NCBI GenBank assembly: GCA_016704325.1
Contig: JADJAG010000005.1
Span: 135,860-199,859, forward strand
Source: Chitinophagaceae bacterium
GTDB taxonomy: Bacteria > Bacteroidota > Bacteroidia > Chitinophagales > UBA10324
Direction: 5' to 3'
Length of the DNA stretch: 64,000 bases
Shown here: in pieces, positions 2,108-22,844 of the stretch
Numbering within the stretch: the first letter of the stretch is position 1
Layout: each line of letters begins with the position of its first letter
Position numbers and translations under genes: made by a program
Notes under the pieces: model-generated
What the model was told of the DNA's origin: nothing
The model's database searches: none
Seen by the model: the letters and a program-made list of their open reading frames with translations, nothing else

Positions 2108-2737
2108 ATGACTTCCCTCGATAAGGTAAGTGGTCTTCTTCTTTCACTGGCTAATTATCAGCAATTTGACGGTGAGTTCTTTCGTTTAAGACTCGATGAG
2201 AATCATATATTTTTAAAGGAAAATCAAATTAAGTTTGATGAATGTCACTTTTATTTCAGTACACTGAAAAACCTCAATTGGATAGCGATAACTAGCTTGC
2301 AAACAACAAATGCAGGTACGTATGCTGCCGAGTTTTCATTAACCTTTGAAGGAATTAAACAAGCACTATTGCTTCAGTCAGAAGGAATCACTTCAAACAA
2401 TTGCTTTGTGGCTATGTCTTTTCGAAATGAAACAAAGGCGATTAGACAGGCTATCAAAAACGCAATTTTTAGCACAGGCTTCAATGCAATACTTATTGAT
2501 GAATTGCATCACGATAGTGTTCAGCCGATTAATGATGCAATTATTACAGCTTTGAAAAAATCCCGATTTTGCTTTGCAGACTTTAACAATCAAGCAAGCG
2601 GCGTTTACTACGAGAGCGGCTTTGTAGCGGGTCAGAGTAAAAAGGTAATTTATTGTTGTCAGCAAGATCATTTTCAAAATTCACATTTTGATACAAATAA
2701 CTGTAGTCCAAATAAATTTATTTATGGCTATTCCTGA
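2108..2737 (+). CDS. Two-domain protein: an unknown N-terminal domain of about 95 aa plus a C-terminal nucleoside 2-deoxyribosyltransferase-like / TIR-like Rossmannoid domain.
   Basis: CFVAMSF...ILIDEL...INDAIITALKKSRFCFADFNNQASGVYYESGFVAGQSKKVIY...HFDT matches the FVxMxF ... D..(N)..VyYE.G.A...gK.vI pattern of the NDT/TIR-like clade, and the Glu of YYESG is retained. The gene is AT-rich: my hand count of two 60-nt lines gave 33-37% GC. Confidence 0.6.
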   Translation: MTSLDKVSGLLLSLANYQQFDGEFFRLRLDENHIFLKENQIKFDECHFYFSTLKNLNWIAITSLQTTNAGTYAAEFSLTFEGIKQALLLQSEGITSNNCFVAMSFRNETKAIRQAIKNAIFSTGFNAILIDELHHDSVQPINDAIITALKKSRFCFADFNNQASGVYYESGFVAGQSKKVIYCCQQDHFQNSHFDTNNCSPNKFIYGYS

Positions 2738-2792
2738 AATTGTGACGGATCATTTCTATTTTCATGATCGGTAAAATTTAAATGGATTATTT

Positions 2793-3638
2793 ATGGAGGA
2801 AACTGTAAAAAGAAAAAGCCGGGCGCATGAGGAACCGCGATTCAGGCAATACCTAGGAACGGTAATAAGTGGTTTTGTTTTGTTTGGCACAGTAGCCTTT
2901 ATTGTGATGGGTTTCTGGATCATCAATATTGTAGTAACGCACAATCCACCCGGTGAAGATCCAACTGATAAACTGATTAAAGTCCTTCAGACACTATTTA
3001 CAGCAATCCTGCCGCTTTTCGGAACCTGGATCGGAACGGTGTTGGCTTTTTATTATACAAAGGAGAACCTGCAGGCAGCCAATGAGAGCATCAGGGACCT
3101 GGTAGATAAGGTGACTTCTGCCAAGAAATTGGAATCCATAAAAGCAAAGGATGTAATGATACCGGTAGAGAAGCTGATCTATCTGGAGTTTAATTCAACC
3201 GATGACCCTGCGAAGTTCAGGCTGAAAGAAGATTTTCACGATTATGTGGTGAGAGAAAAAATTCAACGGGTAATTCTGTTGAATGAAAACAAGAATGCCC
3301 GTTATGTACTGCACAGCAGCCTTATTCAGCGATTTATTACGCTACAATATTTTAAGCGGGTAGCGAATCAACCTGCAGAGCATGGTGCAGAAAATAGCGA
3401 ACCGCTGACCGCTGCTACTTTTGCAGATATGCTGCAATCGGAAGATGAGCAGATCAAAGGTGTGATCAGGGAAGGTATTAATTTCATCAGTTTGGAAGCA
3501 ACCCTTGCCGTAGCGAAGTCGTTGATGAATAACAAATATTGCCAGGACGTCTTTATTACAAAAGGCGGACAGTCCAATGAGCCGGTCCTGGGTTGGATCA
3601 CCAATAAAACCATTGAGGATAACAGCATTGTTGATTGA
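2793..3638 (+). CDS. Membrane protein with two N-terminal TM helices followed by a CBS-domain pair.
   Basis: The hydrophobic segments are YLGTVISGFVLFGTVAFIVMGFWIINIVV and LQTLFTAILPLFGTWIGTVLAFYY. CBS1 is SIKAKDVMIPVEKLIYLE...VILLNENKNARYVLHSSLI and CBS2 is TFADML...INFISLEATLAVAKSLM...VFITKGGQSNEPVLGWITNKTI. Confidence 0.7.
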   Translation: MEETVKRKSRAHEEPRFRQYLGTVISGFVLFGTVAFIVMGFWIINIVVTHNPPGEDPTDKLIKVLQTLFTAILPLFGTWIGTVLAFYYTKENLQAANESIRDLVDKVTSAKKLESIKAKDVMIPVEKLIYLEFNSTDDPAKFRLKEDFHDYVVREKIQRVILLNENKNARYVLHSSLIQRFITLQYFKRVANQPAEHGAENSEPLTAATFADMLQSEDEQIKGVIREGINFISLEATLAVAKSLMNNKYCQDVFITKGGQSNEPVLGWITNKTIEDNSIVD

Positions 3639-3682
3639 TATTTCTCCTATAGTGCCTTCTGTTTTTTTATCAACTTTCGAAC

Positions 3683-5745
3683 ATGCATCCATTTGTAATA
3701 TATGTTACCTGGCATCCCTTGTTTGAAGATGGGAAACACTATGCAGAACGAATTTATCAAACCTTTAACAGAAATTTTGCTGATCCATTCAGCCGGAGCA
3801 TAGGCATTCCCGTCTTTTACAGATCCATCAGCAATACCGGAAGTGAAGAGGAAGTACCTGCTGCTATAGATCCCGATGGCGCTGAACACACCGCAATTGT
3901 ATTACTGGTAGATGATTGCATGGTCATTCACCGGCAACAATGGGCAGACTACCTGCAGCAACTGGTAGCTTTAGATAAGGGAAATCATCAGGTGAGAATC
4001 TATCCTGTCGCCATCTCGAAGACTGCATTCAGTGTGAGTGATGTGGTGAATGATAAGAATTTTGTAAGGGTATTTGAGAAAGAGACGACGGAACAGAAAG
4101 CGCGGTTTTTAACGGTAACCCTTGCTCACGAATTTTGCAGGCTGATACTTGGTTTTCAGAGAGCAACGGATCCTAAACAAGATTCATTACCAAGACTTAA
4201 GCTTTTTCTCAGCCATTCAAAAGCAGATGGAGTGGAGATCACCAAACTGTTGAAATACTGGATACAGGAATTCACCGGATTGGAGACCTTTTTTGATGCA
4301 ACCGATATTTCACCGGGAGAATTGTTTGCCGAAGCGATTGACAAAGGAGTGGGCAATTCAAGTTTGCTGGTGGTTCAGACCGATATCTTCAGTAGCCGTG
4401 AATGGTGCCGTGCAGAAGTGCTGGAAGCCAAGAGACACAATCGCCCGGTGGTGGTAGTGAATGCCCTTGATAAAGGAGAGTCCAGGAGTTTTCCATATAT
4501 GTGTAATGTTCCGGTTATACGTTGGAAAAATGAGAGTGCTGCTGATTTTTCATCATTGATTGAACGTATCATTTTAGCGGTGTTGCTCGAAACGCTGCGG
4601 CATGCTTACCAGGGCAAACTGATTGAACATCAGTTTAAGACGTTTCTGAAACCCGGAACAGATTACAAGTTGCTAAAGAATGCACCGGAATTACTCGACC
4701 TGGTAAATACAGAAGAAGCATCAGTCAATTTGAATCGACACTTCATTTATCCTGATCCTCCATTGGGTAATGGCGAGCTGCAGATCCTCAGGCGCTGCAT
4801 GCCGGGTGCGCAATTCAGCACACCCATTCAGCTGATTCGCGATGAAGCAAAAAAAAGTGCCTCACGGGATAAGTTTACAATTGGGCTCTCTATTTCGGAA
4901 TCTGAAAAAATGGAAGTGCGCGGATTGAGTACCGATCACCTGAAAGATGTAATGGTGGAAGCTGCACGTTACCTGTTGGCTTCAGGCTATTCTCTTGCAT
5001 ATGGTGGCGATATACATTACAGTGCGGGCTTCAATTTTGCCATGTTGCTGAAGGAGATGGTGATGACTTACCGTGCCGATTATAAAGGAGAAAACGCCAG
5101 GGTTACCAACTATGTGGCCTATCCAATCTTTCATACGATCAGCACTGCTTTGGAAGCGGAATTAATTGACGTGGTGCGCTTTATCCGTGTTCCCCGCCTG
5201 TTGACCTGGCCATAAATAAGAAGGACGACTGGCAACGGATTTTGAAAGCGGAAACGGTGCACGACCAATACCTTTTTGCCCGGTGCCTTACAGAAATGCG
5301 TTTGATTATGAATGAGTCTATTGATGCGCGAATAATCCTTGGCGGAAAGCAGACCGGGTATAAAGGTCGCTACCCCGGATTGATGGAAGAAGTATTGATA
5401 GCGATGACTTCTCATAAGCCGGTATTTATCATTGGTGCATTCGGAGGTTGTGCGGCGTCTGTTATTCAGGCTCTGCTTGGAGAGACACCGGAAACTTTAA
5501 CAAAAGAGTATCAATACAAAGTAGCACAATACAAAACGCTTGCAAACTATTATCAACAACAGGATGCTGGTGCGGTAAATGAAATCAACTACGAGAAGGT
5601 GGTTGGATTCTTCAACAGTGCAGGCATAGAAGGACTAAACAACGGATTGTCGCCTGATGAAAATAAAATGCTGTTTACCAGTGTTGATGCCGGGCTTGTG
5701 ATCTCTTTGCTTTTGAAAGGGCTGAGCAGTTGTGTAAACAAATGA
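3683..5745 (+). CDS. TIR-like / TIR / SLOG three-domain protein. As assembled it is split by a 1-nt frameshift at the C-run 5192-5195 (ORFs 3683..5215 and 5242..5745).
   Basis: Residues 1-100 are TIR-like (PFVIYVTWHP...GIPVFYRS...IVLLVDD). The central domain is a canonical TIR (KLFLSHSKADG...ETFFDATDISPGE...SSLLVVQTDIFSSREWCRAEVLEA; the WCRAE codons are 4403-4417). The C-terminal domain is SLOG-like (FTIGLSISESE...LAYGGD... in the first ORF and ARIILGGKQTGYKGRYPGLMEE...PVFIIGAFGGCAA in the second). The second frame is open from 5170, and adding one C gives ...RFIRVPPPVDLAINKKDDWQRILKAE... Confidence 0.75.
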
Positions 5746-5870
5746 CAGGCTTTTAGGTGTTCGGGAAGCAGCTTGCATAATAAATGTGCTGCCTGGCATT
5801 TTTGCCACCGCTCAACAAGCTTGTACTCCTGCTAATTTTGTATTTTCATCACAGCAATTAAAATAGATCT

Positions 5871-6921
5871 ATGCAGGAGCAGTCTTCAGGACGGACAAAC
5901 CGGGAACCAACCACTGCAAAACGCGGGCATTTTTTTGATTTTTTCTCAGGGATAGATCCTGAGATCAGGAATGAATTACCACCTGCCGATCATTTTCCAT
6001 ATATCCTTATCGGGTTCAGTAACCTTTTTGCCTCTGTATTGATAGGTATGTCGGCGTACCTGTTTTTTGAATCCATCCTGCATACGTATTATCTCGCCAT
6101 TTTTTTTGCCTGGCTCATTTTCAGCCTTGTCGTAATTGTGTTGCGGGCAATTACTACTTCCTTTCTTTCTAAAACCTACCAGTCAGTCAGGTATGTTTAC
6201 CTTATTTGCATTCCTGTTATCGCCATTGTATGCAGCCAGCCGGTTGGTATGTTTATTTCAGAAGTGAACCTTGTGCGGGAGAAACGAACCACCTTGATCA
6301 GTGATACCGTTCAGTGGACCAATGATACAGCTCAATTCAGACTAACAGCTGAAGCGTACCAGGATTCCGTTAAGTTGTTTGAAATGAGTGGCGTAAATGC
6401 AAGGATGAAAGCTGATTCGCTGTATAAAGTTATTGTGTCAAAGAAAAAGGATTCCATTGCCATTCAAAAAAGTATTCGCGCACTTCAGAACAACCTGCAG
6501 ATTGAGGAAAAAAAAGGCAAGAGCCCTGAGCAGACCAATAACAATAATTATGCAGCAGCAGTGGAAGAGACGAAGAAACTAAAACAACAACTTGATCAGC
6601 AAACAGGGGCATTGGAGTTGCTGAAAAGGGATTTGAGTAATGTGAGGATCTCCTACCAGATACTCAGCAACCCGATCAGTGAATTGCCGTATGTAAAGGA
6701 GTTGTACATCAATAAATACCAGGATTCAATTGCTTCTCAGAAGAAGCAGGCTGAAATGTTGGTATCGCGGATCAAAAGAGAATCGAGCACAGATTGCTGC
6801 GCTCGAAGGAGTAACCACCTGCACTACCTGTACCTTCAGTGAAAAGTTTGCTTATTACCGGCAACATGTATTTTCCAGTTGGCTACTTCTTTTCGTTAGC
6901 ATCACGTTTTTTTACTGTTAA
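5871..6921 (+). CDS. DUF4407-like membrane coiled-coil protein. As assembled it is broken by frameshifts at the A-run 6773-6776 and the T7 run 6907-6913, and its C-terminal limit is unresolved.
   Basis: The N-terminus FFDFFSGIDPEIRNELPPADHFPYILIGFSNLFASVLIGMSAYLF, the further TM segments, the long coiled coil, and then ...AQIAALEG...WLLLFVSITFF / LILPPYIISRSRNDLYHQLL follow the DUF4407 layout as I remember it. The third frame, open from 6900, has no stop before the ATG at 7065. Confidence 0.55.
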
Positions 6922-7064
6922 TTCTTTTCTTAATCCTTCCTCCGTATATTATTAGCAGGAGCCGGAATGACCTTTACCATCAGTTACTTGCTACGAAAGA
7001 GAACAGTGAAACCATTTCCATACGCAGAAAGGAGATAGAAGAAAAGTTTAAGATTGAAACGGAA

Positions 7065-8845
7065 ATGAAAACCGTAAAAGACCTGCTGCAAAAATTTGAC
7101 GGCGGAGGCAATGAGACCACACAGGACATCACCAACAATCTAACTTCAACCAATGATCCCAAATCGTATGAAGCTTTGGGTGATGTTCAGGTGAAGCTGG
7201 GTGACTATTTCAGAGCCGTGGAATTCTATGACCGCGCTATTTTCCTCGATCCGGAAGCTTCAGCGCCATGGAGAAAGAAAGCAGATGTTTATTCCGTTAT
7301 GGGAAGATATGCCGAAGAGCAACAGGCAAAGGCACGATATACGGAATTGTTGAGTGTGGAACGCTTTCGCAATAATCTCACACGTGCCACCAGGTTGTAT
7401 GCTGTGGAAGTAGCGAACCTGCCTTTCTATGGTTCTTTTTCCTGGCACTTGCGCGGCAGCATGAATATTATGCTGGGAAAAAACGGTTATGGAAAAAGTC
7501 ACCTCATGTCGATCATGCTGGCCTTATTGCAGGAAGAAGAGAAGTTATTGCGTGACCTGACCATGATGGACAAAGCCTCTCCAACTCCTGCTCCCTATTT
7601 TAAAATCTCTTTTCAGTCGGATCATGAGCGCGATGTGCCCTTGATGGAATCGTTGCAGCAACAGGTGGAGGAAAATCAAAATTGCGATCAGCGTTTCTTG
7701 CACGGCAGCGTGCGGCGAGGACTCCTGCTGATCAGACTGTAACAGAAATTGCACCACCTGTTACAACGGAATGGGATGGTGAATTGATCAGGCTGCAAAA
7801 GCAACTAGAACTGTTGGAAGGAATAGCTTACTTTGATAAGCTGGGTATTCAGTCTTCCTATGGTAAAATCCCTGTACTGGCAATTCCTGATTCGAGGTTC
7901 ATAAATAAATCAGCGGAGTCCACTTCCATTAGAAATGATGAACGATCTAAGAAAATACTGGAAAACGGAGCATACCAGTTTATGCTGCAGGTACCGTATG
8001 AAGATGTGATTCAGAATTTATTGAATACCATCTCTACCATCTACCTTGATGAAAGGAATTTTGAGGATGAAATATTTCAGCTCATCCGCCGTGTTTTCAA
8101 ACGCCTTACCGGAAGTGAATTTGTGTGGGATACTATTCAGCGTACAGAAGATAATTCCGGTTTTATTATCAGGGTGAAGACAGAAGGCGCAGATACTTCG
8201 CTTCCGATACAGAAAGCCTCGCAGGGCACATTATCCGTTGTCGCGATGATTGGAACGATGTATCATTATATGTCGCTTCGTTATCCTGCTGTTTCGCGCA
8301 AACAGGTGACCCGGCAACCGGCTATTATTTTTATTGATGAGATTGATGCGCACCTGCATCCGAGCTGGCAGCAAAAGATTATCGGAATTTTGCGTAATGA
8401 GTTTCCGAATGTACAATTCATTATTTCAGCGCACAGCCCGCTGGTGATAGCCGGATGCAAAGAAGAAGAAGTGTGTGTGCTGCGAAAGCGCGACAAAGGA
8501 TTTACGATGGAGATCATTGAATCTAACCTGATTGGTAAACCCATCGCCGATATCTTCAGGATGATTTTTGAAGTGGAAGAAAAGAATGAAATGTATTTGC
8601 AGCTGGCAGCGCTGATGCCCTTTAAAAATTCCATTAAATCGAAAGCGCAGGCTCTCCGTGAAAAAACGACACGCGATGAAAAGGAAGAGCAACAACTGCA
8701 GGAGTTAGAGCAGCAGATTGAGAATTTTGTTTACCTCGAACAGTTTGATACCATCCGTTCTACCTTTGAAGAACTGGAAGATTTGAAGAATGCGAATGAG
8801 ACGTTGAAGATGGAGGTGGAGCGGTTGCGGGCGAGGTTGGGGTGA
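7065..8845 (+). CDS. TPR-containing ABC-type (AAA_15/AAA_21-like) ATPase with a C-terminal coiled coil. As assembled it is split by a frameshift at the A-run 7678-7681 (ORFs 7065..7742 and 7682..8845).
   Basis: A TPR-like segment is YEALGDVQVKLGDYFRAVEFYDRAIFLDPEA. The Walker A motif GKNGYGKS is at 7475-7498. Walker B and the D-loop are AIIFIDEIDAHLHPSWQ, followed by FIISAHSPLVI. Adding one A restores ...QQQVEENQKLRSAFLARQRAA... Confidence 0.7.
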
Positions 8846-9157
8846 ATGGTTAAATTGTTGAATTGTTGAATTGTTAAATGGTTAAATGGTTAAATGGTTA
8901 AATGGTTAAATGGTTAAATGGTTAAATGGTTGAATGGTTGAATGCTTAAATTGTTAAATGGTTGCAGCGAAGCTGATGCGATGGGGAGGTTGATGAAAAT
9001 TTTAAATTTGAAAATATTGAATATTGAATATTGGATATTGGATATTGAGTGTTGAATATTCAATATTCAATATTCAACACTCAATATTCAACACTCAATA
9101 CTCAATACTAACGACTTCCGACTAATTACTTCCGACTAACTACTAACTACTAACTAC
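8845..9157. repeat. Nested low-complexity block: 15 units of the 8-mer AATGGTTA, the hairpin CAGC-GAA-GCTG, a 7-mer array ATTGAAT mirrored by ATTCAAT (a palindrome with arms of about 45 bp), then CGACTTCCGACTAA x2 and ACTAACT x3 abutting the next ATG.
   Basis: I counted the units directly. The 8-mer units run 8845-8964, the palindrome is centred near 9057/9058, and the ACTAACT run ends at 9157. The block has the same architecture as the 195-202 bp MITE at 28749 and 56538, but greatly expanded. Confidence 0.85.
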
Positions 9158-10149
9158 ATGGATACCAAAGTAGAATCTCTCGTAAAAATGTTTGGTGAAA
9201 ATGCCCTGACGGACATTGAAACCAACATTGAGCCGTTGATAAAAAAGTATTTTAATGCAGAGTGGGATGCTGTGTATCAACAGGAGTTTTTTACAAAGCA
9301 TTATGAACTGATTCGCGGTTACCGGAAGAAGCTGGATGAGCTGACGGGCAATGCGTTGAATACAAAGGAAAAGATTATTGCCGCATTGAGTTTCTGCTGG
9401 AAGGAAGCTAATTTCAATAAATCGGAGGCCACGATATTTTATTCAAAAATGGAATTATTTCACCGGCTGGTGAATGAAATGTTGAAGAACGAATGGACGC
9501 CGAAACAGCAGGAACACTTCAATACGGTTGCCGTGATATTCCGTGATTATCACAATTATTTTCTTTCCTATACCAACCATCTTTCGCAGGCCATCAACCA
9601 GGCATACAAGATTATCTATGAAGCGATTTTGAATAAGGAAGATTATTCCGGCGAAGATTTCAGCAAGCGCAACCTGCTGGCCAAAGCCTTTCACCGTTTC
9701 CTTCACCTGAAAAATATCCGCAAGGGTTTCTTCGACCTCGACTCCATCCGGCTGGCGCAGGGCATTGACGATAAAGTGACTGCCAATGCCAGCAAATCCA
9801 TAGCCTTTATTCAATTGATTTCCATGGCATCTTTTGAATACAATGAACCCAACTGGAGTTATATTGAATACCTGACGTATACAAAAGCAAGAGACGTTTT
9901 CAAACAGCAAAACGACCACCGTTCCGGTTTCTCTCCTTTACTTTTTATGTTTTCACAGAAAAGAATGCATTACCGCCTGAATCGCTGATCCCCGACGATT
10001 ATAAAGTTTGGTCTGCCTCCACGAATGAGAAGCTGCACTGCGATCTTACGGCTATCAATACCTACGAAGATTTTGTGAAGGAAATTGAAAGACTGATCAA
10101 TGCCATTATCAATTATAAATCTGAAATGGTGAATAGTATTCCGGATTGA
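9158..10149 (+). CDS. Helical N-terminal domain plus a TIR-like domain. As assembled it is frameshifted near the T-run 9950-9953, and the track ORF 9158..9988 continues in another frame to a TGA at 10147-10149.
   Basis: NYFLSYTNHL...KGFFDLDSIRLAQGIDDKVTANASKSIAFIQLISMASFEYNEPNWSYIEYL follows the TIR pattern F.SY...FfD...i..G..i...i..S...i.liS......W...E (the WSYIE codons are 9854-9868). The alternative frame reads FTEKNALPPESLIPDDYKVWSASTNEKLHCDLTAINTYEDFVKEIERLINAIINYKSEMVNSIPD*. The gene is AT-rich: my hand count of two lines gave about 33-35% GC. Confidence 0.55.
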
Positions 10150-10193
10150 AAGGAGGCAGCATGGGGGACTATTTTTATGTGCGCAGCCTCTTT

Positions 10194-10336
10194 AGTCATC
10201 GGATGACTATAATTCAATGTATTGATTGAGCAGTTTTACTTTAAGTCATCCGATGACTTTCGGCCGGTTGTAGTCATCGGATGACTTGTATTCAGTAGGT
10301 TGATTTTCCAAATTTGTTATAAGTCATCCGATAACT
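10194..10336. repeat. Four copies of the 15-bp palindrome AGTCATC[G/C]GATGACT, arranged as two tandem units of about 78 bp.
   Basis: The copies are at 10194-10208 (centre G), 10244-10258 (centre C), 10272-10286 (centre G) and 10322-10336 (degenerate, centre C). The spacings are 50, 28 and 50 bp. The inner segments are related (attcaatgtattgatt versus attcagtaggttgatt). Confidence 0.85.
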
Positions 10337-10376
10337 ATCATTGAGACAAGATGTAAGTAAAATTTGGAATAGGAAA

Positions 10377-11087
10377 CTAAATAAACTCCTCCACAGAAAT
10401 CTTCAATACCTCAAACGCTTTTTTAGCAGCCAATTTCTCCGCGTTTTTTTTATTCGTGTCTTCGCCTTCTCCGTATTCTTCTCCATCAATTATTGCCGCA
10501 ACTTTATACAAAGCACGATGGCGGTGACGGGAGTGGTTTTTACGGCGAAAGTGAGGAGCGTCCTGATTTCTGCGCCCATTCCAGCAGCTTGCTTTTATAA
10601 TTGAATTCGCTGATCTCCAACTCCCCGATATCGAGAAATGGTTTCACAATTTTTTTGATGATAAAATTGTGCGCGCTCTTATATCCTTTGTCGAGATAGA
10701 CTGCTCCTACCAGGGCTTCCAGCGCATTGCCGGTAAGTGACTTTTTATTGATCAAGGGATCTGCTGAACTATAGGAAAGATATAAGTCAATGCCCATCTT
10801 ATGAGAAACGGTCTTCAATTGGCTCCTGCTTACCATTTTTGAGCGGATATCAGTCAGGTAGCCTTCATCTTTGTAGGGGAATTTTTAAATAGGTAATCAG
10901 CTATTACGGCACCGAGTACGGCATCGCCTAAAAATTCGAGGCGTTCATTGCTTTCGTATATTTCTTCGGCAGAAGAACTGTGGCGAAAGGCCATTTCATA
11001 CAATAACAGGTTGGAAGGCGAAATGCCGGTGAGTTCCTTTACCTGCGAGTAGAACGCTTTCTTTCCTGAAAATAATCGTCGAATCAA
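10377..11087 (-). CDS. rnc: Ribonuclease III. As assembled it has at least two frameshifts.
   Basis: The signature [20 protein letters not shown] is present. Adding one base at the T5 run 10882-10886 restores [25 protein letters not shown]. The C-terminal dsRBD (...[45 protein letters not shown]) lies in a third frame that ends at the stop 10379-10377. Confidence 0.85.
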
Positions 11088-11116
11088 ACGAACGGCTTGT
11101 GTGGTATCCTAAAATG

Positions 11117-11149
11117 AAAAAACCCCGGCAGAAATAAATCCTGCCAGGG
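11117..11149 (-). terminator. Rho-independent terminator between fabF and rnc.
   Basis: The minus strand reads CCCTGGCAG-gatttattt-CTGCCGGGG followed by TTTTTT. The stem is 9 bp with one G-U pair. Confidence 0.6.
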
Positions 11150-11169
11150 TAAAAGGTAGAAAAAAATTA

Positions 11170-12426
<1,257 letters not shown>

Positions 12427-12438
12427 GTAAAATTCGGA

Positions 12439-12678
12439 TTAAGACTTTGCGTACTGCTCGATGTAAGCGATGGCCTGGCCAACTGAAGTGATAGTTTCAG
12501 CCTGCTCGTCAGGGATGGAGATATTAAACTCTTTCTCGAACTCCATGATCAACTCAACCGTGTCGAGAGAATCGGCACCAAGATCATTGGTAAAGGTTGC
12601 TTCAGGCGTAACCTCGCTTTCATCAACGCCTAATTTGTCAATGATGATCTTCTTAACTCTTGCTGCGATGTCTGACAT
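12439..12678 (-). CDS. acpP: Acyl carrier protein.
   Basis: The 79-aa product carries [16 protein letters not shown] with the phosphopantetheine Ser, and the gene lies immediately upstream of fabF. Confidence 0.95.
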
Positions 12679-12840
12679 AAAAAATTATTGGTTTATGTGG
12701 ATTAATTTTTGGCAAAGTAAGGGATTTCAGTTTTTATACGCAATCTTTTGATCAATTATTTTCAGACACTTGTTTTGAGTCATTTTACTGTGAATACACT
12801 GAAGTAACAGGTATGCCGTATTGGTCAATGTCTCTACAAT

Positions 12841-13329
12841 TTGTTTAAGTCACTCCAATCGTGTAGGTTTGAAAGGCATCAGCCAACAAAAAGGGGAATA
12901 GCGAGTGTCGAAGAAAAAACAATTGCGCTCGAAGAGCAATTTACCGGACTTTTATGGGCCATTGTTGCACCGCTGAAGGAGTATCAGTTGGGATGGCATA
13001 TAAATAAAGTGCTGGGATTTGAACTGAAGAAGGCTGATGATATGGAACTGATACATAAGAAGCGCCATAAGACATCAGTTTACAGTTGTTACAAATACGA
13101 GAGTGAACTGGATAAATGGCTGGTGTACGTAGTTTCGAATAAAAATTCAGGCGAGTTCCTGGTACCTGAAGTGAGGCAGGCGGATTATTTTCTGATTATC
13201 CGTGGTGAAATTTCTGTGCAAAGGGAAGAGGAGCTGTTTGTTAAACTAAGGAGCATACCGGTTATTCAACTAGTAGTGAAGATGAACTTTGATCATTTGA
13301 AATCGAAGGCCAACCTGATGATTGATTAG
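12841..13329 (+). CDS. IPExxxVDY family protein. The start is uncertain: the track uses TTG and there is no in-frame ATG near the expected N-terminus.
   Basis: The motif LVPEVRQADYFLIIRG is present and the gene is divergent from acpP, which is the usual Bacteroidota context. Confidence 0.65.
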   Translation: MFKSLQSCRFERHQPTKRGIASVEEKTIALEEQFTGLLWAIVAPLKEYQLGWHINKVLGFELKKADDMELIHKKRHKTSVYSCYKYESELDKWLVYVVSNKNSGEFLVPEVRQADYFLIIRGEISVQREEELFVKLRSIPVIQLVVKMNFDHLKSKANLMID

Positions 13330-21240: not shown

Positions 21241-22844
21241 TTACTGTATGATAATTTTAGAAGTGAATTGTTGATTTGGTGAAGACAATTGCAAAAGGTA
21301 CACGCCATCAGGCAATTCGTTTCTGTTTAAATTAACAGAGGTTTGATGAGCAATCTGTTGTTGAAAAACTACCCTTCCTGTAATATCCATAAGTTTCAAA
21401 ATTTCAAATTTGCCATTGAAACGGACAGTGGTAAAATCATGAAATGGATTAGGTGAGATAGTTATTTCAACTGCTTCAAATTCCGGTTGGTTTGCAGAAG
21501 TGATCGTTCCGTTCTTAAAGAGATCAATGATAGATTGTACGGAGTTTGAAAGTGCCAATCTTCCCTCCCCATCTTCATCGCTGCCATTGTAAGGCAAAAA
21601 GTTATAGACGAAATCAAGGCTTATTACTCCTTGCGACAGAAGATTAAAAGGGCCGATAGAACCAATCATTCGGATATCAGTAGGATCGAGGTTGGCATTC
21701 CACCACCAGTTGGAGGGCTGACCTGAAACAGAAGAGTCGGAAGTGCCGGGGAAATAGAAATCTACTGTATCGGCACCCTGATACCCATCTGGATTTAAAG
21801 AATCAACAGCAAGGGTGATCCGTCTTTCCATATTGCGCGGAGGTAATCATAATAGTCGTCGCTTGTTTCAGGATTTCCAAGCACCGAAAAATCGTTGTGG
21901 TAACCGATTGATTTAGTAATTGGATGACTGAGCCAGGTAGCTGCCAATGCAGGCGGGTCAACTCCATAAGATGGATTTCCGCAGGAAATGTCTCCGTCAA
22001 TAGAATCCTGGTTAATAACAAAAATGGTGTTCTTTGCCACATCGGTACCAACATAATCGTCGGCATAACAGCCGAGATCAAAATCATTCCACAATCCAAA
22101 ATACAGGTCGTGATAATTGTTACCTGACTTGTTTTTGAGTGTATAATTAAAGAAGACAGAATTTTCCAGGAGTAGATTTGTAGCAGCATTAAAAGCATAT
22201 GCCATGCCGTGTACTTCAAATCCCAAAGGGAGGGCATTGGTTTCTGTATGTGGAAGGGCCAGGTCGTTAAATATAAAATACACTGCCTGGTCGCCATAAA
22301 TAGCAGGATAGTCGCCGGCTGAAGGTTCGTAGATGCCATTGTTGTTAAGGTCTGCAAATGGCGCCATGATCGCATCAAAACCTGCCGGTCCGTTGCCGGG
22401 CCAGTTTGCTATACGCTGTGGCACTACATATCCTGCATCGGTATAGTGTGTTTTATGATGTGCTATCTCTGCTTTGCCGACTTTCCAAAGTTGATCCCAG
22501 GTTTCTATATCACCGGCCGCACCATTTGTTGCAATCGGTCCGGGAAAAAAATCATCGCCTGTCTGACGATAGGTAGATGCGGCGAGATGCAATTGACCAC
22601 CGTCATCCAAACCTCCCATCCATAGATTCGCTGCGAAGGTCGCATGAACACCTCCACCTTTCGGGGCTTCGAATCCATTGTCATAAGGGAATTGTTCAAA
22701 CAATGTTCCATTAGAGTTGATCATTGCCCTGATGTTTCCGGTATCTATTGTTTCTGTTGCATCGTATTGTTGCGCATGAAGCGCATCCAAAATGAAAAGG
22801 CAGCATAGGGTCGTAATTATTTTTTGCAGCGTAATAGTTTTCAT
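21241..22844 (-). CDS. Secreted protein with a T9SS type A (Por) C-terminal sorting domain. As assembled it is frameshifted at the G-run 21813-21815.
   Basis: A signal peptide is present (LFILDALHAQQ). The C-terminus is ISPNPFHDFTTVRF...DITGRVVFQQ...LPDGVYLLQLSS...KIIIQ. Adding one C on the coding strand gives AIWKDGSPLAVDSLNPDGYQG. Confidence 0.8.

What the first reader, a model, noticed from the sequence alone, without database searches (positions are those of the whole stretch)
5871..8845. A DUF4407-like membrane coiled-coil protein whose reading frame runs without a stop into a TPR-ABC ATPase
After correcting two homopolymer shifts (6773-6776 and 6907-6913), the DUF4407-like C-terminal segment (LILPPYIISRSRNDLYHQLL...) continues in a frame that is open from 6900 through the ATG at 7065 into the TPR plus Walker-A (GKNGYGKS) ATPase. 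There are two readings. One is a fusion of about 990 aa: membrane coiled coil, TPR, ABC ATPase, coiled coil. The other is two tightly coupled genes whose boundary is hidden by another sequencing error. ABC/AAA_15/AAA_21-type ATPases are the sensor or motor subunits of several defence systems (Septu, PARIS, Gabija). I do not know of a characterised system that pairs one with DUF4407.
Basis: partly seen in the sequence, partly recalled or inferred. Interest (0 to 1): 0.65.

Follow-up and report, generated by a model that had tools for sequence, protein, structure and literature searches.

The report
Membrane-anchored ABC ATPase paired with TIR
The broken reading frames are one 991-residue gene, a membrane-anchored DUF4407-TPR-ABC ATPase, which across several phyla always sits next to a previously unrecognised TIR protein and so looks like the core of an uncharacterised, probably antiviral, signalling system.

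Summary
Window 5871-8845 reads as four ORF pieces in frames 0/1/0/2. Three 1-bp changes in homopolymers (6773-6776, 6906-6913, 7672-7675) give a 991-aa protein. It is 95% identical to, and colinear with, uninterrupted 991-1008-aa proteins from other metagenomes, so the fusion reading is right and the two-gene reading is wrong.

Every 1-bp indel against a 93%-identical syntenic contig lies in or next to a homopolymer. These indels also break the neighbouring genes, including rnc. dN/dS is 0.08, so sequencing error is more likely than decay.

The architecture is a 4-TM DUF4407-like module, a short TPR, then a PtuA-like ABC ATPase.

The main new result concerns context. This ATPase clade is followed directly by a ~330-aa gene in 22 of 24 genome loci and in every metagenome locus checked. 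That protein is a helical domain plus a TIR domain with an invariant catalytic Glu.

In this lineage the cassette also carries a TIR-SLOG protein (the domain pair of the type IX Thoeris effector) and a 2-TM protein.

I found no described system that matches it. It is probably an ATPase-gated TIR signalling system. Its function is untested.

The parts
2793..3638 (+). 'fam281': 281-aa protein with two N-terminal TM helices and a C-terminal domain that looks like a CBS pair (weakly supported). First gene of the cassette in this lineage.
   Evidence: Intact ORF. Conserved next to the ATPase in L001, L002, L006 and L007. Its soluble domain is fused to the C-terminus of the ATPase homologue P0009 (my HMM, 5.6e-63; alignment A4). 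No hit in Pfam, PADLOC or the PDB. The only CBS hint is a weak match to the CBS region of IMP dehydrogenase (E=0.067).
3683..5745 (+). TIR-SLOG protein (687 aa when intact): N-terminal domain, TIR_2, then SLOG cluster 2 (PF18163). Split here by a 1-bp loss in the C-run near 5190-5193.
   Evidence: Pfam gives TIR_2 4.8e-9 and LD_cluster2 3.6e-27 on piece 3683-5215, and LD_cluster2 4e-50 on piece 5242-5745, at consecutive profile positions. The intact 687-aa orthologue is present in L001 and L005. Indel position. TIR and SLOG are separate adjacent genes in L006 and L007.
5871..8845 (+). The finding: one gene for a 991-aa DUF4407-like / TPR / PtuA-like ABC ATPase fusion, interrupted in this assembly by three 1-bp homopolymer indels.
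   Evidence: stitching. (uninterrupted homologues P0002-P0005; 95.1% identity to P0002). (indels against L001). (dN/dS 0.079).
5871..6950 (+). N-terminal membrane module (residues 1-360). Hydrophobic helices at about 44-62, 76-94 and 111-129, a charged insert of about 200 aa that is poor in Pro and Gly (130-337), then a fourth helix at about 338-356. DUF4407-like. The charge distribution suggests N-in/C-in, which would put the insert outside the cytoplasm (inferred).
   Evidence: Pfam DUF4407 36.4 bits against a gathering score of 31.3, residues 36-353. DUF4407 is hit by 6 of 20 N-terminal modules of the clade, best 3e-51. TM scan. Charges and heptad test.
6773..6776 (+). Frameshift site 1: AAAA run with one A too many relative to L001.
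   Evidence: Junction ...MLVSRIKENRAQIAAL... matches P0002.
6906..6913 (+). Frameshift site 2: G followed by a T7 run, with one base missing relative to L001.
   Evidence: Junction FVSITVFLLLILF against P0002 FVSTTVFLLLLLF.
7672..7675 (+). The neighbouring A-run at 7678-7681 is the alternative position.
   Evidence: One search places the gap at 7666-7675. The corrected junction VEEKSKLRSAF matches P0002 IEEKSKLRAAF.
7152..7385 (+). Short TPR region (about 2-3 repeats, residues 428-505) between the last TM helix and the ATPase.
   Evidence: Pfam TPR_2 2.6e-5 plus other TPR families. PDB consensus-TPR chains match residues 427-505.
7398..8842 (+). ABC-type ATPase of the AAA_15/AAA_21 (PtuA-like) kind. 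Motifs: Walker A GKNGYGKS (nt 7476-7499), signature QKASQGT, Walker B IIFIDEID, H-loop SAHSP. About 240 aa are inserted between Walker A and the signature, and the C-terminal tail is helical.
   Evidence: Pfam AAA_21 2.1e-18 and AAA_15 1.6e-17. PADLOC PtuA 8.7e-41. PDB PtuA 8ee4, retron Ec78/Ec83 PtuA and 9n69. The motif residues are invariant in A1.
8845..9157 (.). Unusually long spacer (312 bp, against 9-56 bp in the more distant relatives L005-L009) filled with short tandem repeats: AATGGTTA x14.9 (8845-8963), AATATTC x13.6 (9013-9107) and a 14-bp unit x3.6 (9107-9157).
   Evidence: Among the length differences from L001 is an 8-bp indel at the edge of the 8-bp array. Gene spacing in other loci.
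9158..10149 (+). 'fam330': 330-aa protein with an N-terminal helical domain (about 1-125) and a TIR domain (about 130-330) carrying an invariant catalytic-type Glu (E237, motif NW[CS]xxEY). It is the conserved partner of the ATPase. Split here by a 1-bp loss in a T-run near 9942.
   Evidence: HMM hits on both pieces. Indel. Intact 330-aa homologues P0122-P0126. AF2 pLDDT 94.3. Foldseek: nearly all of the top 50 hits are TIR domains, with AbTir at TMt 0.76. TIR_2 is hit by 64 of 134 members. Invariant S137, E237 and W285.

Best explanation
Window 5871-8845 is a single gene for a 991-aa inner-membrane protein.

Its N-terminal part is a DUF4407-like module of four TM helices, with an insert of about 200 aa between TM3 and TM4 that probably lies outside the cytoplasm. 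This is followed in the cytoplasm by 2-3 TPRs and a catalytically intact PtuA-like ABC ATPase.

The three frame breaks are most likely homopolymer sequencing or consensus errors, not biology.

The protein is the NTPase of a conserved two-gene core: this ATPase clade plus a downstream helical-TIR protein (fam330). In this Chitinophagales lineage two further genes are added, a TIR-SLOG protein and a 2-TM protein.

Proposed mechanism (inferred). By analogy with PtuA and AriA, the ABC ATPase would form an ATP-controlled oligomeric sensor or scaffold, here tethered to the membrane, that holds the TIR partner inactive. A trigger would be sensed through the N-terminal membrane/TPR part or through the ATPase cycle, and would license the TIR protein to cleave NAD+. 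Where receptor-type genes are present, the NAD-derived product would bind them. Here the receptor would be the SLOG domain of the TIR-SLOG protein, switching on its own TIR NADase, as in Thoeris. The outcome would be NAD+ depletion or membrane damage and abortive infection.

What is shown: the fusion, the domain identities, the conserved ATPase-TIR adjacency and purifying selection.

What is inferred: defence function, direction of signalling, membrane topology, and whether the membrane module is a sensor or an effector.
For: Fusion. P0002-P0005 (991-1008 aa, 95-60% overall identity) and P0009, P0014, P0032 and P0104 (about 30-40%) are uninterrupted and colinear with the stitched protein.

Errors. 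All twelve 1-bp indels against L001 over 10.7 kb lie in or next to a homopolymer run. They also break the TIR-SLOG gene, fam330 and rnc (three pieces covering consecutive RNase III and dsRBD profile positions). All of these genes are intact in L001 and L005. dN/dS of the corrected gene against L001 is 0.079, the same in both halves.

ATPase. The motifs are invariant. The nearest families are PtuA-like.

Partner. fam330 lies immediately downstream of the ATPase in 22 of 24 top genome loci from Bacteroidota, Acidobacteriota, Aminicenantes and Pseudomonadota. It is also there in L001, L005, L006, L007 and L009 and in L091-L093. fam330 is a TIR protein (hhalign probability 88%).

Signalling logic. 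The constant core is flanked in different loci by different candidate receptors or effectors:
- TIR-SLOG (window, L001, L005-L007);
- the small TM protein PDC-M50A (L025, L030, L033, L034, L091);
- a caspase-like protein (L011) or a CHAT protein (L009);
- an extra TIR (L033) and an nSTAND1 NTPase (L017).

Precedent. A signalling TIR plus a 'TIR and SLOG' effector is the experimentally validated type IX Thoeris (bioRxiv 10.64898/2025.12.03.692087).

A membrane tether is common in the clade. About half of the top 120 ATPase homologues have two or more N-terminal TM helices.
Against: No experiment supports defence.

The cassette lies between housekeeping genes (rhodanese and thioredoxin genes upstream; rnc, fabF and acpP downstream) at the same chromosomal site in relatives as distant as 60% overall identity (L005). 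Several other loci are also in housekeeping surroundings rather than defence islands.

I saw no relatives on viral contigs.

fam330, fam281 and the membrane module have no PADLOC or NCBIfam model.

Many loci hold only the two core genes, so the TIR may be a terminal NADase rather than a signal generator.

Homologues also carry N-terminal TIR, kinase, lipase-like and other domains. That pattern fits an effector position as well as a sensor position.

Topology and coiled-coil character are inferred only; the heptad signal is weak.

The indel density (12 in 10.7 kb) is much higher than in the rest of the window, where a 2021-aa ORF is intact. A local real decay cannot be excluded without reads.
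Confidence: 0.6

Rival explanations
1. There are two separate, translationally coupled genes: a DUF4407 membrane protein ending before 7065, and a TPR-ABC ATPase starting at ATG 7065. The boundary would be hidden by a further sequencing error.
For: There is an ATG at 7065. Some family members are shorter (about 680 aa), with small N-termini.
Against: Eight homologues of about 990-1008 aa, from 95% down to about 30% identity, read straight through this point. P0002 itself was recovered on four independent contigs. The Met is Ile in P0003 and P0005. The segment NDLYHQLL...RRKEIEEKFKIETE that spans the supposed boundary is conserved. dN/dS is equally low on both sides.
Confidence: 0.03
2. The frameshifts are real. 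In this strain the cassette (and rnc) is a set of recently inactivated pseudogenes, that is, a defence system caught in the act of being lost.
For: Six or more frame-breaking indels cluster within about 7.5 kb, while long ORFs elsewhere in the window are intact. Defence genes are often lost. Homopolymer slippage is also a genuine mutational route.
Against: The indels also hit rnc three times and lie in flanking non-cassette sequence. There are no in-frame stops and no excess of non-synonymous change after correction (dN/dS 0.079). Every one sits in or next to a homopolymer run, and both insertions and deletions occur, which is the classic signature of read or consensus error.
Confidence: 0.2
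3. The DUF4407-like membrane module is the effector, not an anchor or sensor. ATPase-driven oligomerisation would turn it into a membrane-disrupting assembly, and the TIR protein would act upstream or in parallel.
For: The N-terminal position of the clade holds typical effector domains in other members (TIR, DUF2235 lipase-like, kinase). TM effectors are common in CBASS, Thoeris and Pycsar (stated in 10.64898/2025.12.03.692087). Separate small TM proteins (PDC-M50A) accompany TM-less ATPases in some loci but also a TM-bearing one, L091.
Against: The same position also holds repeat or ligand-binding domains (TPR, WD40, PEGA, Sel1). The TM3-TM4 insert varies from 0 to about 250 aa while the 4-TM core is kept, which looks more like a variable ectodomain on an anchor. 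A dedicated enzymatic partner (TIR) is always present.
Confidence: 0.25
4. This is not an immune system. It would be a housekeeping or regulatory membrane complex, for example linked to envelope or cell-wall control or to NAD metabolism, or an atypical ABC transporter.
For: The chromosomal position among housekeeping genes is stable in the Chitinophagales relatives. Peptidoglycan amidase or LysM genes lie directly upstream in several loci (L009, L017, L020, L091). No viral or mobile-element context was seen.
Against: The nucleotide-binding domain is of the AAA_15/AAA_21/SMC-like kind, with a long insert after Walker A, not a transporter NBD (ABC_tran E=0.0013, below threshold). There is no ABC-transporter TM domain. 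The domain set (TIR x2, SLOG, PtuA-like ATPase; elsewhere caspase/CHAT, nSTAND, PDC-M50A) is that of conflict systems. The distribution is patchy across four phyla and the family is small (270 clusters at 50% identity among 1.84 billion proteins), which suggests horizontal spread.
Confidence: 0.12

Closest known systems
Septu PtuA/PtuB and retron type I-A (Ec78/Ec83) PtuAB
   Same: The ATPase domain is closest to PtuA. PADLOC PtuA profiles score up to 8.7e-41. PDB 8ee4 PtuA and retron PtuA chains score 1e-13 to 1e-17. NCBIfam PtuA is the best hit. The layout is the same: a two-gene core of an ABC ATPase with a small partner enzyme immediately downstream.
   Different: The partner is a TIR protein, not the HNH nuclease PtuB. 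The ATPase carries a 4-TM DUF4407-like module and TPRs that PtuA lacks. The NCBIfam score of 101 is far below the equivalog cut-off of 500. No retron reverse transcriptase or ncRNA was noted next to the gene.
Thoeris, especially type IX (ThsB TIR + ThsJ 'TIR and SLOG' effector) and type I (ThsA SIR2-SLOG)
   Same: The window has a stand-alone TIR protein plus a protein combining TIR with a SLOG domain, the same domain pair as the validated type IX system (10.64898/2025.12.03.692087). SLOG acts as receptor of TIR-made cADPR isomers in type I (same paper).
   Different: Thoeris has no ATPase, whereas here the TIR protein's conserved partner is the ABC ATPase and the TIR-SLOG gene is lineage-specific. 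fam330 carries an extra N-terminal helical domain and is too divergent for Pfam TIR_2 to detect in about half of its members. The SLOG is of the 'cluster 2' family rather than the STALD family, which it matches only weakly (E=3.6e-4, below threshold). The NCBIfam Thoeris type III ThcB4 model scores only 27.5 against a cut-off of 220. The sequence of the type IX effector was not available for comparison.
PARIS (AriA ABC ATPase + AriB TOPRIM) and Gabija (GajA)
   Same: An AAA_15/21-type ABC ATPase acts as sensor or scaffold that releases or activates a partner effector. There is weak sequence similarity to AriA (E about 2e-3).
   Different: The partner is a TIR domain, not a TOPRIM/DUF4435 domain. 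The protein is membrane-anchored. The similarity covers only the Walker B region.
DUF4407 (PF14362) membrane proteins
   Same: The N-terminal 360 residues match the family profile over TM1 to TM4 (36.4 bits against 31.3). A clade member, P0035, matches at 3e-51.
   Different: As I recall it, the Pfam family description gives typical lengths of about 370-600 aa. Here the module is fused to TPR and an ABC ATPase. The close homologue P0002 scores just below the gathering score (29.5 bits). No function is known for the family; three papers mention it only in passing.
PADLOC candidate system PDC-M50 (component A)
   Same: A small TM protein of about 140 aa that matches PDC-M50A (up to 6.7e-50) lies directly beside the ATPase-fam330 pair in five loci. 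This links the core to a previously flagged defence candidate.
   Different: It is absent from the window. The ATPase N-terminal module and fam330 have no PADLOC model. The other components of PDC-M50 could not be looked up.

Membership tests
DUF4407 (Pfam PF14362) | Score at or above the Pfam gathering score (31.3 bits) on the family profile | tested here: met
   The stitched window protein scores 36.4 bits (E=4.5e-9) over residues 36-353 and profile positions 6-273 of 297. This is borderline: the P0002 N-terminus scores 29.5 bits. At family level, 6 of 20 N-terminal modules match, best 3e-51.
DUF4407 (Pfam PF14362) | Architecture of three TM helices, a long helical insert and a fourth TM helix | tested here: met
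   The hydropathy scan finds helices at about 44-62, 76-94, 111-129 and 338-356. The coiled-coil nature of the insert has only weak support.
Septu PtuA / retron PtuA | AAA_15/AAA_21 ABC ATPase with Walker A, signature, Walker B and H-loop | tested here: met
Septu PtuA / retron PtuA | Equivalog-level similarity (NCBIfam NF041760, cut-off 500 bits) | tested here: not met
   101.4 bits, C-terminal half only.
Septu PtuA / retron PtuA | Adjacent HNH nuclease PtuB | tested here: not met
   The downstream gene is a TIR protein in the window and in more than 30 related loci.
Thoeris (TIR signalling plus effector) | Stand-alone TIR-domain protein with a catalytic Glu | tested here: met
   fam330: AF2 and Foldseek give a TIR fold, Pfam TIR_2 is hit by 64 of 134 members, and E237 is invariant.
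Thoeris (TIR signalling plus effector) | Adjacent effector with a signal-binding domain (SLOG, Macro and others) | tested here: met
   A TIR-SLOG (PF18163) gene lies in the same cassette. It is absent from most loci of the wider clade.
Thoeris (TIR signalling plus effector) | The core operon is TIR plus effector only; the TIR senses infection itself | tested here: not met
   The conserved partner of fam330 is the ABC ATPase (22 of 24 loci). Thoeris as described has no ATPase.
Thoeris (TIR signalling plus effector) | The TIR makes a cADPR-type signal that activates the effector; phage protection is shown | not testable with these tools
   Needs biochemistry and phage assays.
Thoeris type III (NCBIfam ThcB4 equivalog) | Score at or above 220 bits | tested here: not met
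   27.5 bits on the TIR domain of the TIR-SLOG protein.
PARIS (AriA/AriB) | ABC ATPase with an adjacent DUF4435/TOPRIM AriB | tested here: not met
   No TOPRIM/DUF4435 neighbour. AriA similarity is only E about 2e-3.
ABC transporter (fused TMD-NBD) | Transporter-type NBD (PF00005 above threshold) and a transporter TM domain | tested here: not met
   ABC_tran scores 19.8 bits against a cut-off of 25, covering the Walker A region only. The TM part matches DUF4407 and no transporter TM family.

The most novel reading that the evidence does not exclude
The protein would be a transmembrane immune receptor with Toll-like-receptor logic in a bacterium. Its variable extracytoplasmic helical insert (between TM3 and TM4) would sense phage attack or envelope damage from outside the cytoplasm. 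The signal would cross the membrane to a cytoplasmic TPR-ABC ATPase switch. That switch would then license a dedicated TIR protein to make an NAD-derived second messenger, read by swappable effectors: TIR-SLOG here, and caspase-like, CHAT or small TM proteins elsewhere. This would be a new class of ATPase-gated Thoeris-like signalling system with an outside-in sensor.
Probability: 0.15. Interest if true: 0.85.

Novelty: new variant of a known kind. Interest (0 to 1): 0.55.

Why it matters
How bacterial TIR proteins are switched on by infection is largely open; capsid sensing by staphylococcal Thoeris ThsB is one of the few known cases.

A conserved pairing of a TIR protein with a PtuA-like ABC ATPase, often membrane-anchored, would be a different solution. 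The TIR would be licensed by an NTPase sensor, which joins the Septu/PARIS logic (ATPase scaffold plus effector) to the Thoeris logic (TIR signal plus receptor).

It would also give DUF4407, a family with no known role, a first functional context.

The fam330 TIR family (about 270 clusters at 50% identity) is too divergent for Pfam TIR_2 to detect reliably, since only about half of its members match even at E<=0.1. That may explain why TIR-centred surveys would miss it.

Practically, the case shows that the broken frames in this stretch of the assembly should be repaired, not annotated as pseudogenes or as separate genes.

Tried and rejected
1. A word-indexed homologue search with the stitched N-terminal 398 aa returned only a fragment of the window protein itself. 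The fusion partners were found only through the ATPase half.

2. An AF2 run on fam330 with five close sequences failed for the C-terminal domain (pLDDT below 50). It succeeded with the 134-sequence alignment.

3. PDB sequence searches found nothing for fam330 or for fam281. The CBS assignment of fam281 therefore remains a weak inference.

4. Literature.
- DUF4407 appears in three papers, only in passing.
- 'PDC-M50' appears in none.
- Burroughs et al. 2015 (NAR), which defined the SLOG clusters, is not held.
- Kaur et al. 2020 (eLife) and the 2026 NAR domain-centric screen do not mention an ABC-TIR system.

5. The 'ATPase' putative Thoeris type in Table S1 of the Yirmiya preprint uses canonical TIRs that score at most 26 bits on my fam330 profile. 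It is not demonstrably the same system.

6. A viral-contig scan found only distant AAA_21 ATPases, and no fam330, SLOG2, fam281 or membrane-module hit in their flanks.

7. The fam330 alignment was too divergent for a pattern-based locus search.

8. The heptad-periodicity test of the insert was weak, so I do not assert a coiled coil.

9. I considered and rejected an ABC-transporter reading and a Septu membership (see the membership table).


Full report
**1. What is in the sequence**

Between 5871 and 8845 the + strand carries four overlapping ORF pieces:
- 5871-6842, frame 0
- 6730-6921, frame 1
- an open frame-0 stretch from 6900, with an ATG at 7065, to a stop at 7742
- 7682-8845, frame 2

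Removing one A from AAAA 6773-6776, adding one base at G/T7 6906-6913 and adding one A to AAAA 7672-7675 gives a 991-codon ORF with no internal stop. The third is also required.

**2. Fusion or two genes**

A search with the ATPase half found uninterrupted proteins of 991 aa (P0002, 95% identity), 993 aa (P0003), 994 aa (P0004) and 1008 aa (P0005). It also found more distant ones of about 990-1002 aa: P0009, P0014, P0104 and P0032 from Agriterribacter.

The full-length alignment A1 is colinear with the stitched window protein across all three junctions:
- MLVSRIKENRAQIAAL
- FVSITVFLLLILF
- EEKSKLRSAF

The Met encoded at 7065 is Ile in P0003 and P0005, and the segment spanning the supposed boundary is conserved. 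P0002 was called as one gene on four contigs from four samples.

The fusion reading is therefore established. The two-gene reading is rejected.

**3. Error or pseudogene**

Contigs L001 and L002 are syntenic with window 2713-13325 at 93-96% nucleotide identity. They carry intact versions of every gene in the stretch.

All twelve 1-bp indels between the window and L001 lie in or next to a homopolymer run, and both insertions and deletions occur. They break several genes:
- the TIR-SLOG gene (about 5192)
- the fusion gene (three sites)
- the downstream TIR gene (about 9942)
- rnc (three indels)

The three rnc fragments match consecutive RNase III and dsRBD profile positions.

After correction, dN/dS against L001 is 0.079, and it is alike in the membrane half and the ATPase half.

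This is the signature of consensus error. I put that at about 0.8. The indel density here is higher than elsewhere in the window, where a 2021-aa ORF is intact. Only the reads can settle it.

**4. Anatomy of the protein**

Residues 1-360 hold hydrophobic helices at about 44-62, 76-94, 111-129 and 338-356. A charged insert of about 200 aa, poor in Pro and Gly, lies between the third and fourth helix.

Pfam DUF4407 scores 36.4 bits against a gathering score of 31.3. Six of twenty N-terminal modules of the clade hit DUF4407, one of them at 3e-51.

The charge distribution is positive on the TM2-3 loop and after TM4. The ATPase must be cytoplasmic. Together these imply N-in/C-in, with the insert outside the cytoplasm. 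This is an inference.

The insert length varies across the clade from 0 to about 250 aa. My heptad test was only weakly positive.

Residues 428-505 are 2-3 TPRs.

Residues about 510-990 are an AAA_15/AAA_21 ABC ATPase with all catalytic motifs invariant. It is closest to PtuA of Septu and of retron I-A, but far below the equivalog threshold.

**5. Context: the main new result**

*In the window and close relatives.* In the window, L001 and L002 the order is:
1. fam281 (2 TM plus a soluble domain)
2. TIR-SLOG (PF13676 plus PF18163)
3. the fusion gene
4. a gene of about 330 aa with no Pfam hit ('fam330')

L005 has the same order but lacks fam281.

In L006 and L007 the order is fam281, fusion, fam330, TIR, SLOG, with TIR and SLOG as separate genes.

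In L009 (Agriterribacter) a CHAT/LCAT/TPR-S giant protein and an Amidase_2 protein precede the fusion and fam330.

*Across the wider clade.* I built profiles for each family and scanned the 80 loci recovered from species-representative genomes. fam330 lies immediately downstream of the ATPase in 22 of the 24 best loci. These come from Bacteroidota, Acidobacteriota, Aminicenantes and Pseudomonadota. The same holds in three further metagenome loci, where the ATPase carries a bona fide DUF4407 module or an N-terminal TIR.

TIR-SLOG and fam281 are restricted to the window's lineage. Many loci contain only the two-gene core.

**6. What fam330 is**

An exhaustive profile search found 270 clusters (E<=1e-3), nearly all 320-345 aa.

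The 134-sequence alignment has invariant S137, E237 and W285, and a βA-like F-x-S-Y-T motif.

- Pfam TIR_2 is matched by 64 of 134 members, best 1.2e-7.
- hhalign against the TIR of the TIR-SLOG proteins gives probability 88% and aligns the WCxxE motif.
- AF2 with the deep alignment gives pLDDT 94.3 and pTM 0.90.
- In Foldseek against the PDB, all but one of the top 50 hits are TIR domains or TIR-containing proteins: AbTir 7uxu at TMt 0.76, SARM1 at about 0.72, plus SPARTA, MAL, TLR1 and plant TIRs.

fam330 is therefore an N-terminal helical domain of about 125 aa plus a TIR domain with the catalytic-type Glu conserved.

**7. Accessory genes around the core**

- The small TM protein PDC-M50A, a PADLOC defence candidate, in five loci (up to 6.7e-50)
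- A caspase-like protein in L011 and a CHAT protein in L009
- An extra canonical TIR in L033 and an nSTAND1 NTPase in L017
- Peptidoglycan amidases or a LysM protein in L009, L017, L020 and L091

The soluble domain of fam281 is fused to the C-terminus of the ATPase in P0009. This is a Rosetta-stone link between these two proteins.

In the top 120 ATPase homologues, the N-terminal position holds TM modules in about half. In the others it holds TIR, TPR, PEGA, WD40, Sel1, kinase, DUF2235, REC or P-loop domains.

**8. Mechanism**

*Shown:* a membrane-anchored, catalytically intact PtuA-like ATPase under purifying selection, and its invariant genomic coupling to a TIR protein.

*Inferred from precedent:* PtuA and AriA are ATP-controlled oligomeric scaffolds that restrain and release partner effectors; this is my own knowledge of the Septu, retron and PARIS structures behind the PDB entries. 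By analogy, this ATPase would gate the TIR protein.

The constant ATPase-TIR core with swappable neighbours suggests that the TIR makes a diffusible NAD-derived signal where receptors are present. The neighbours are TIR-SLOG, caspase/CHAT and small TM proteins. The domain pairs 'TIR plus TIR-SLOG' and 'TIR plus caspase-like protease' are exactly the validated Thoeris types IX and IV (10.64898/2025.12.03.692087). In two-gene loci the TIR may simply deplete NAD+.

Whether the DUF4407 module is an anchor, an outside-in sensor or a membrane effector is open. I favour anchor or sensor, because of the variable insert on a conserved 4-TM core and because a separate enzymatic partner is always present.

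**9. Comparison and novelty**

The system works like Septu or PARIS (ATPase plus partner) crossed with Thoeris (TIR plus SLOG). It fails defining tests for membership of each:
- no HNH or TOPRIM partner
- NCBIfam scores far below the cut-offs
- an ATPase that Thoeris lacks

fam330, fam281 and the membrane module have no PADLOC or NCBIfam model. The literature I could search describes no DUF4407-ABC or ABC-TIR system.

The Yirmiya preprint lists an untested 'ATPase' configuration, but its TIRs are not fam330.

I rate it a new variant of a known kind.

Three caveats apply. There is no functional evidence. The surroundings are often housekeeping genes rather than defence islands. No viral-contig relatives were found.

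Noticed in passing
window 10377-11087 (- strand): rnc (RNase III) is split into three ORF pieces by 1-bp homopolymer indels at about 10537, 10555 and 10882. The pieces match consecutive Ribonucleas_3_3 and dsrm profile positions. The gene is intact (237 aa) in L001. This suggests that this stretch of the assembly has an elevated homopolymer error rate.
   Followed up: yes
window 8845-9157: The spacer between the fusion gene and the TIR gene is 312 bp, against 9-56 bp in the more distant relatives L005-L009. It consists largely of tandem repeats: AATGGTTA x14.9, AATATTC x13.6 and a 14-bp unit x3.6. Among the length differences from L001 is an 8-bp indel at the edge of the 8-bp array. Possible slippage-prone or phase-variable control of the downstream TIR gene; untested.
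   Followed up: partly
window 10190-10340; L001 14357-14455 and 18193-18291: A cluster of 4-5 copies of a palindromic element (AGTCATC[CG]GATGACT) lies downstream of the TIR gene. In L001 similar repeats flank a 3.7-kb segment carrying three Por_Secre_tail/DUF5122 genes that the window lacks. That is an indel bounded by REP-like repeats.
   Followed up: partly
window 2108-2737 (+): A 209-aa ORF lies just upstream of the cassette and is not shared with L001. It has a weak hit to Nuc_deoxyrib_tr (PF05014, E=0.015), a fold related to TIR and SLOG. There is no PADLOC hit. It could be a further nucleotide-processing component.
   Followed up: partly
L025:10326-10739, L030:6656-7123, L033:4241-4666, L034:3625-4050, L091:5008-5418: A small membrane protein of about 140 aa matching PADLOC candidate PDC-M50A (E down to 6.7e-50) lies directly beside the ATPase-TIR pair in five loci from different phyla. 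It has no Pfam family.
   Followed up: partly
P0009 / L006:7001-10000: This ATPase homologue lacks the long TM3-TM4 insert. It carries at its C-terminus the soluble domain of fam281, while a separate fam281 gene is also present upstream. This fusion implies that fam281 and the ATPase work together.
   Followed up: partly
L011:3936-4919 and L009:631-5967: A caspase-like protein (PADLOC 'caspase', 9.9e-21) lies upstream of the ATPase-TIR pair on the same strand in L011, and a 1778-aa CHAT/LCAT/TPR-S protein does so in L009. This recalls the TIR plus caspase pairing of type IV Thoeris.
   Followed up: no
L009:6001-6966, L017:5962-6597, L020:3095-3730, L091:161-973: Peptidoglycan amidase genes (Amidase_2, Amidase_3) or a LysM gene lie immediately upstream of the ATPase in several loci, including ones whose ATPase has no TM helices. 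Meaning unknown.
   Followed up: no
window 21241-21831 and 21795-22844 (- strand): Two same-strand ORFs overlap by 37 bp. The downstream one ends in a Por_Secre_tail domain and the upstream one has no Pfam hit. This may be another gene split by a frameshift.
   Followed up: partly
window 12888 and 12914: Two further 1-bp deletions in A-runs relative to L001, near the start of ORF 12841-13329, downstream of acpP. This is the same error pattern as in the cassette.
   Followed up: no
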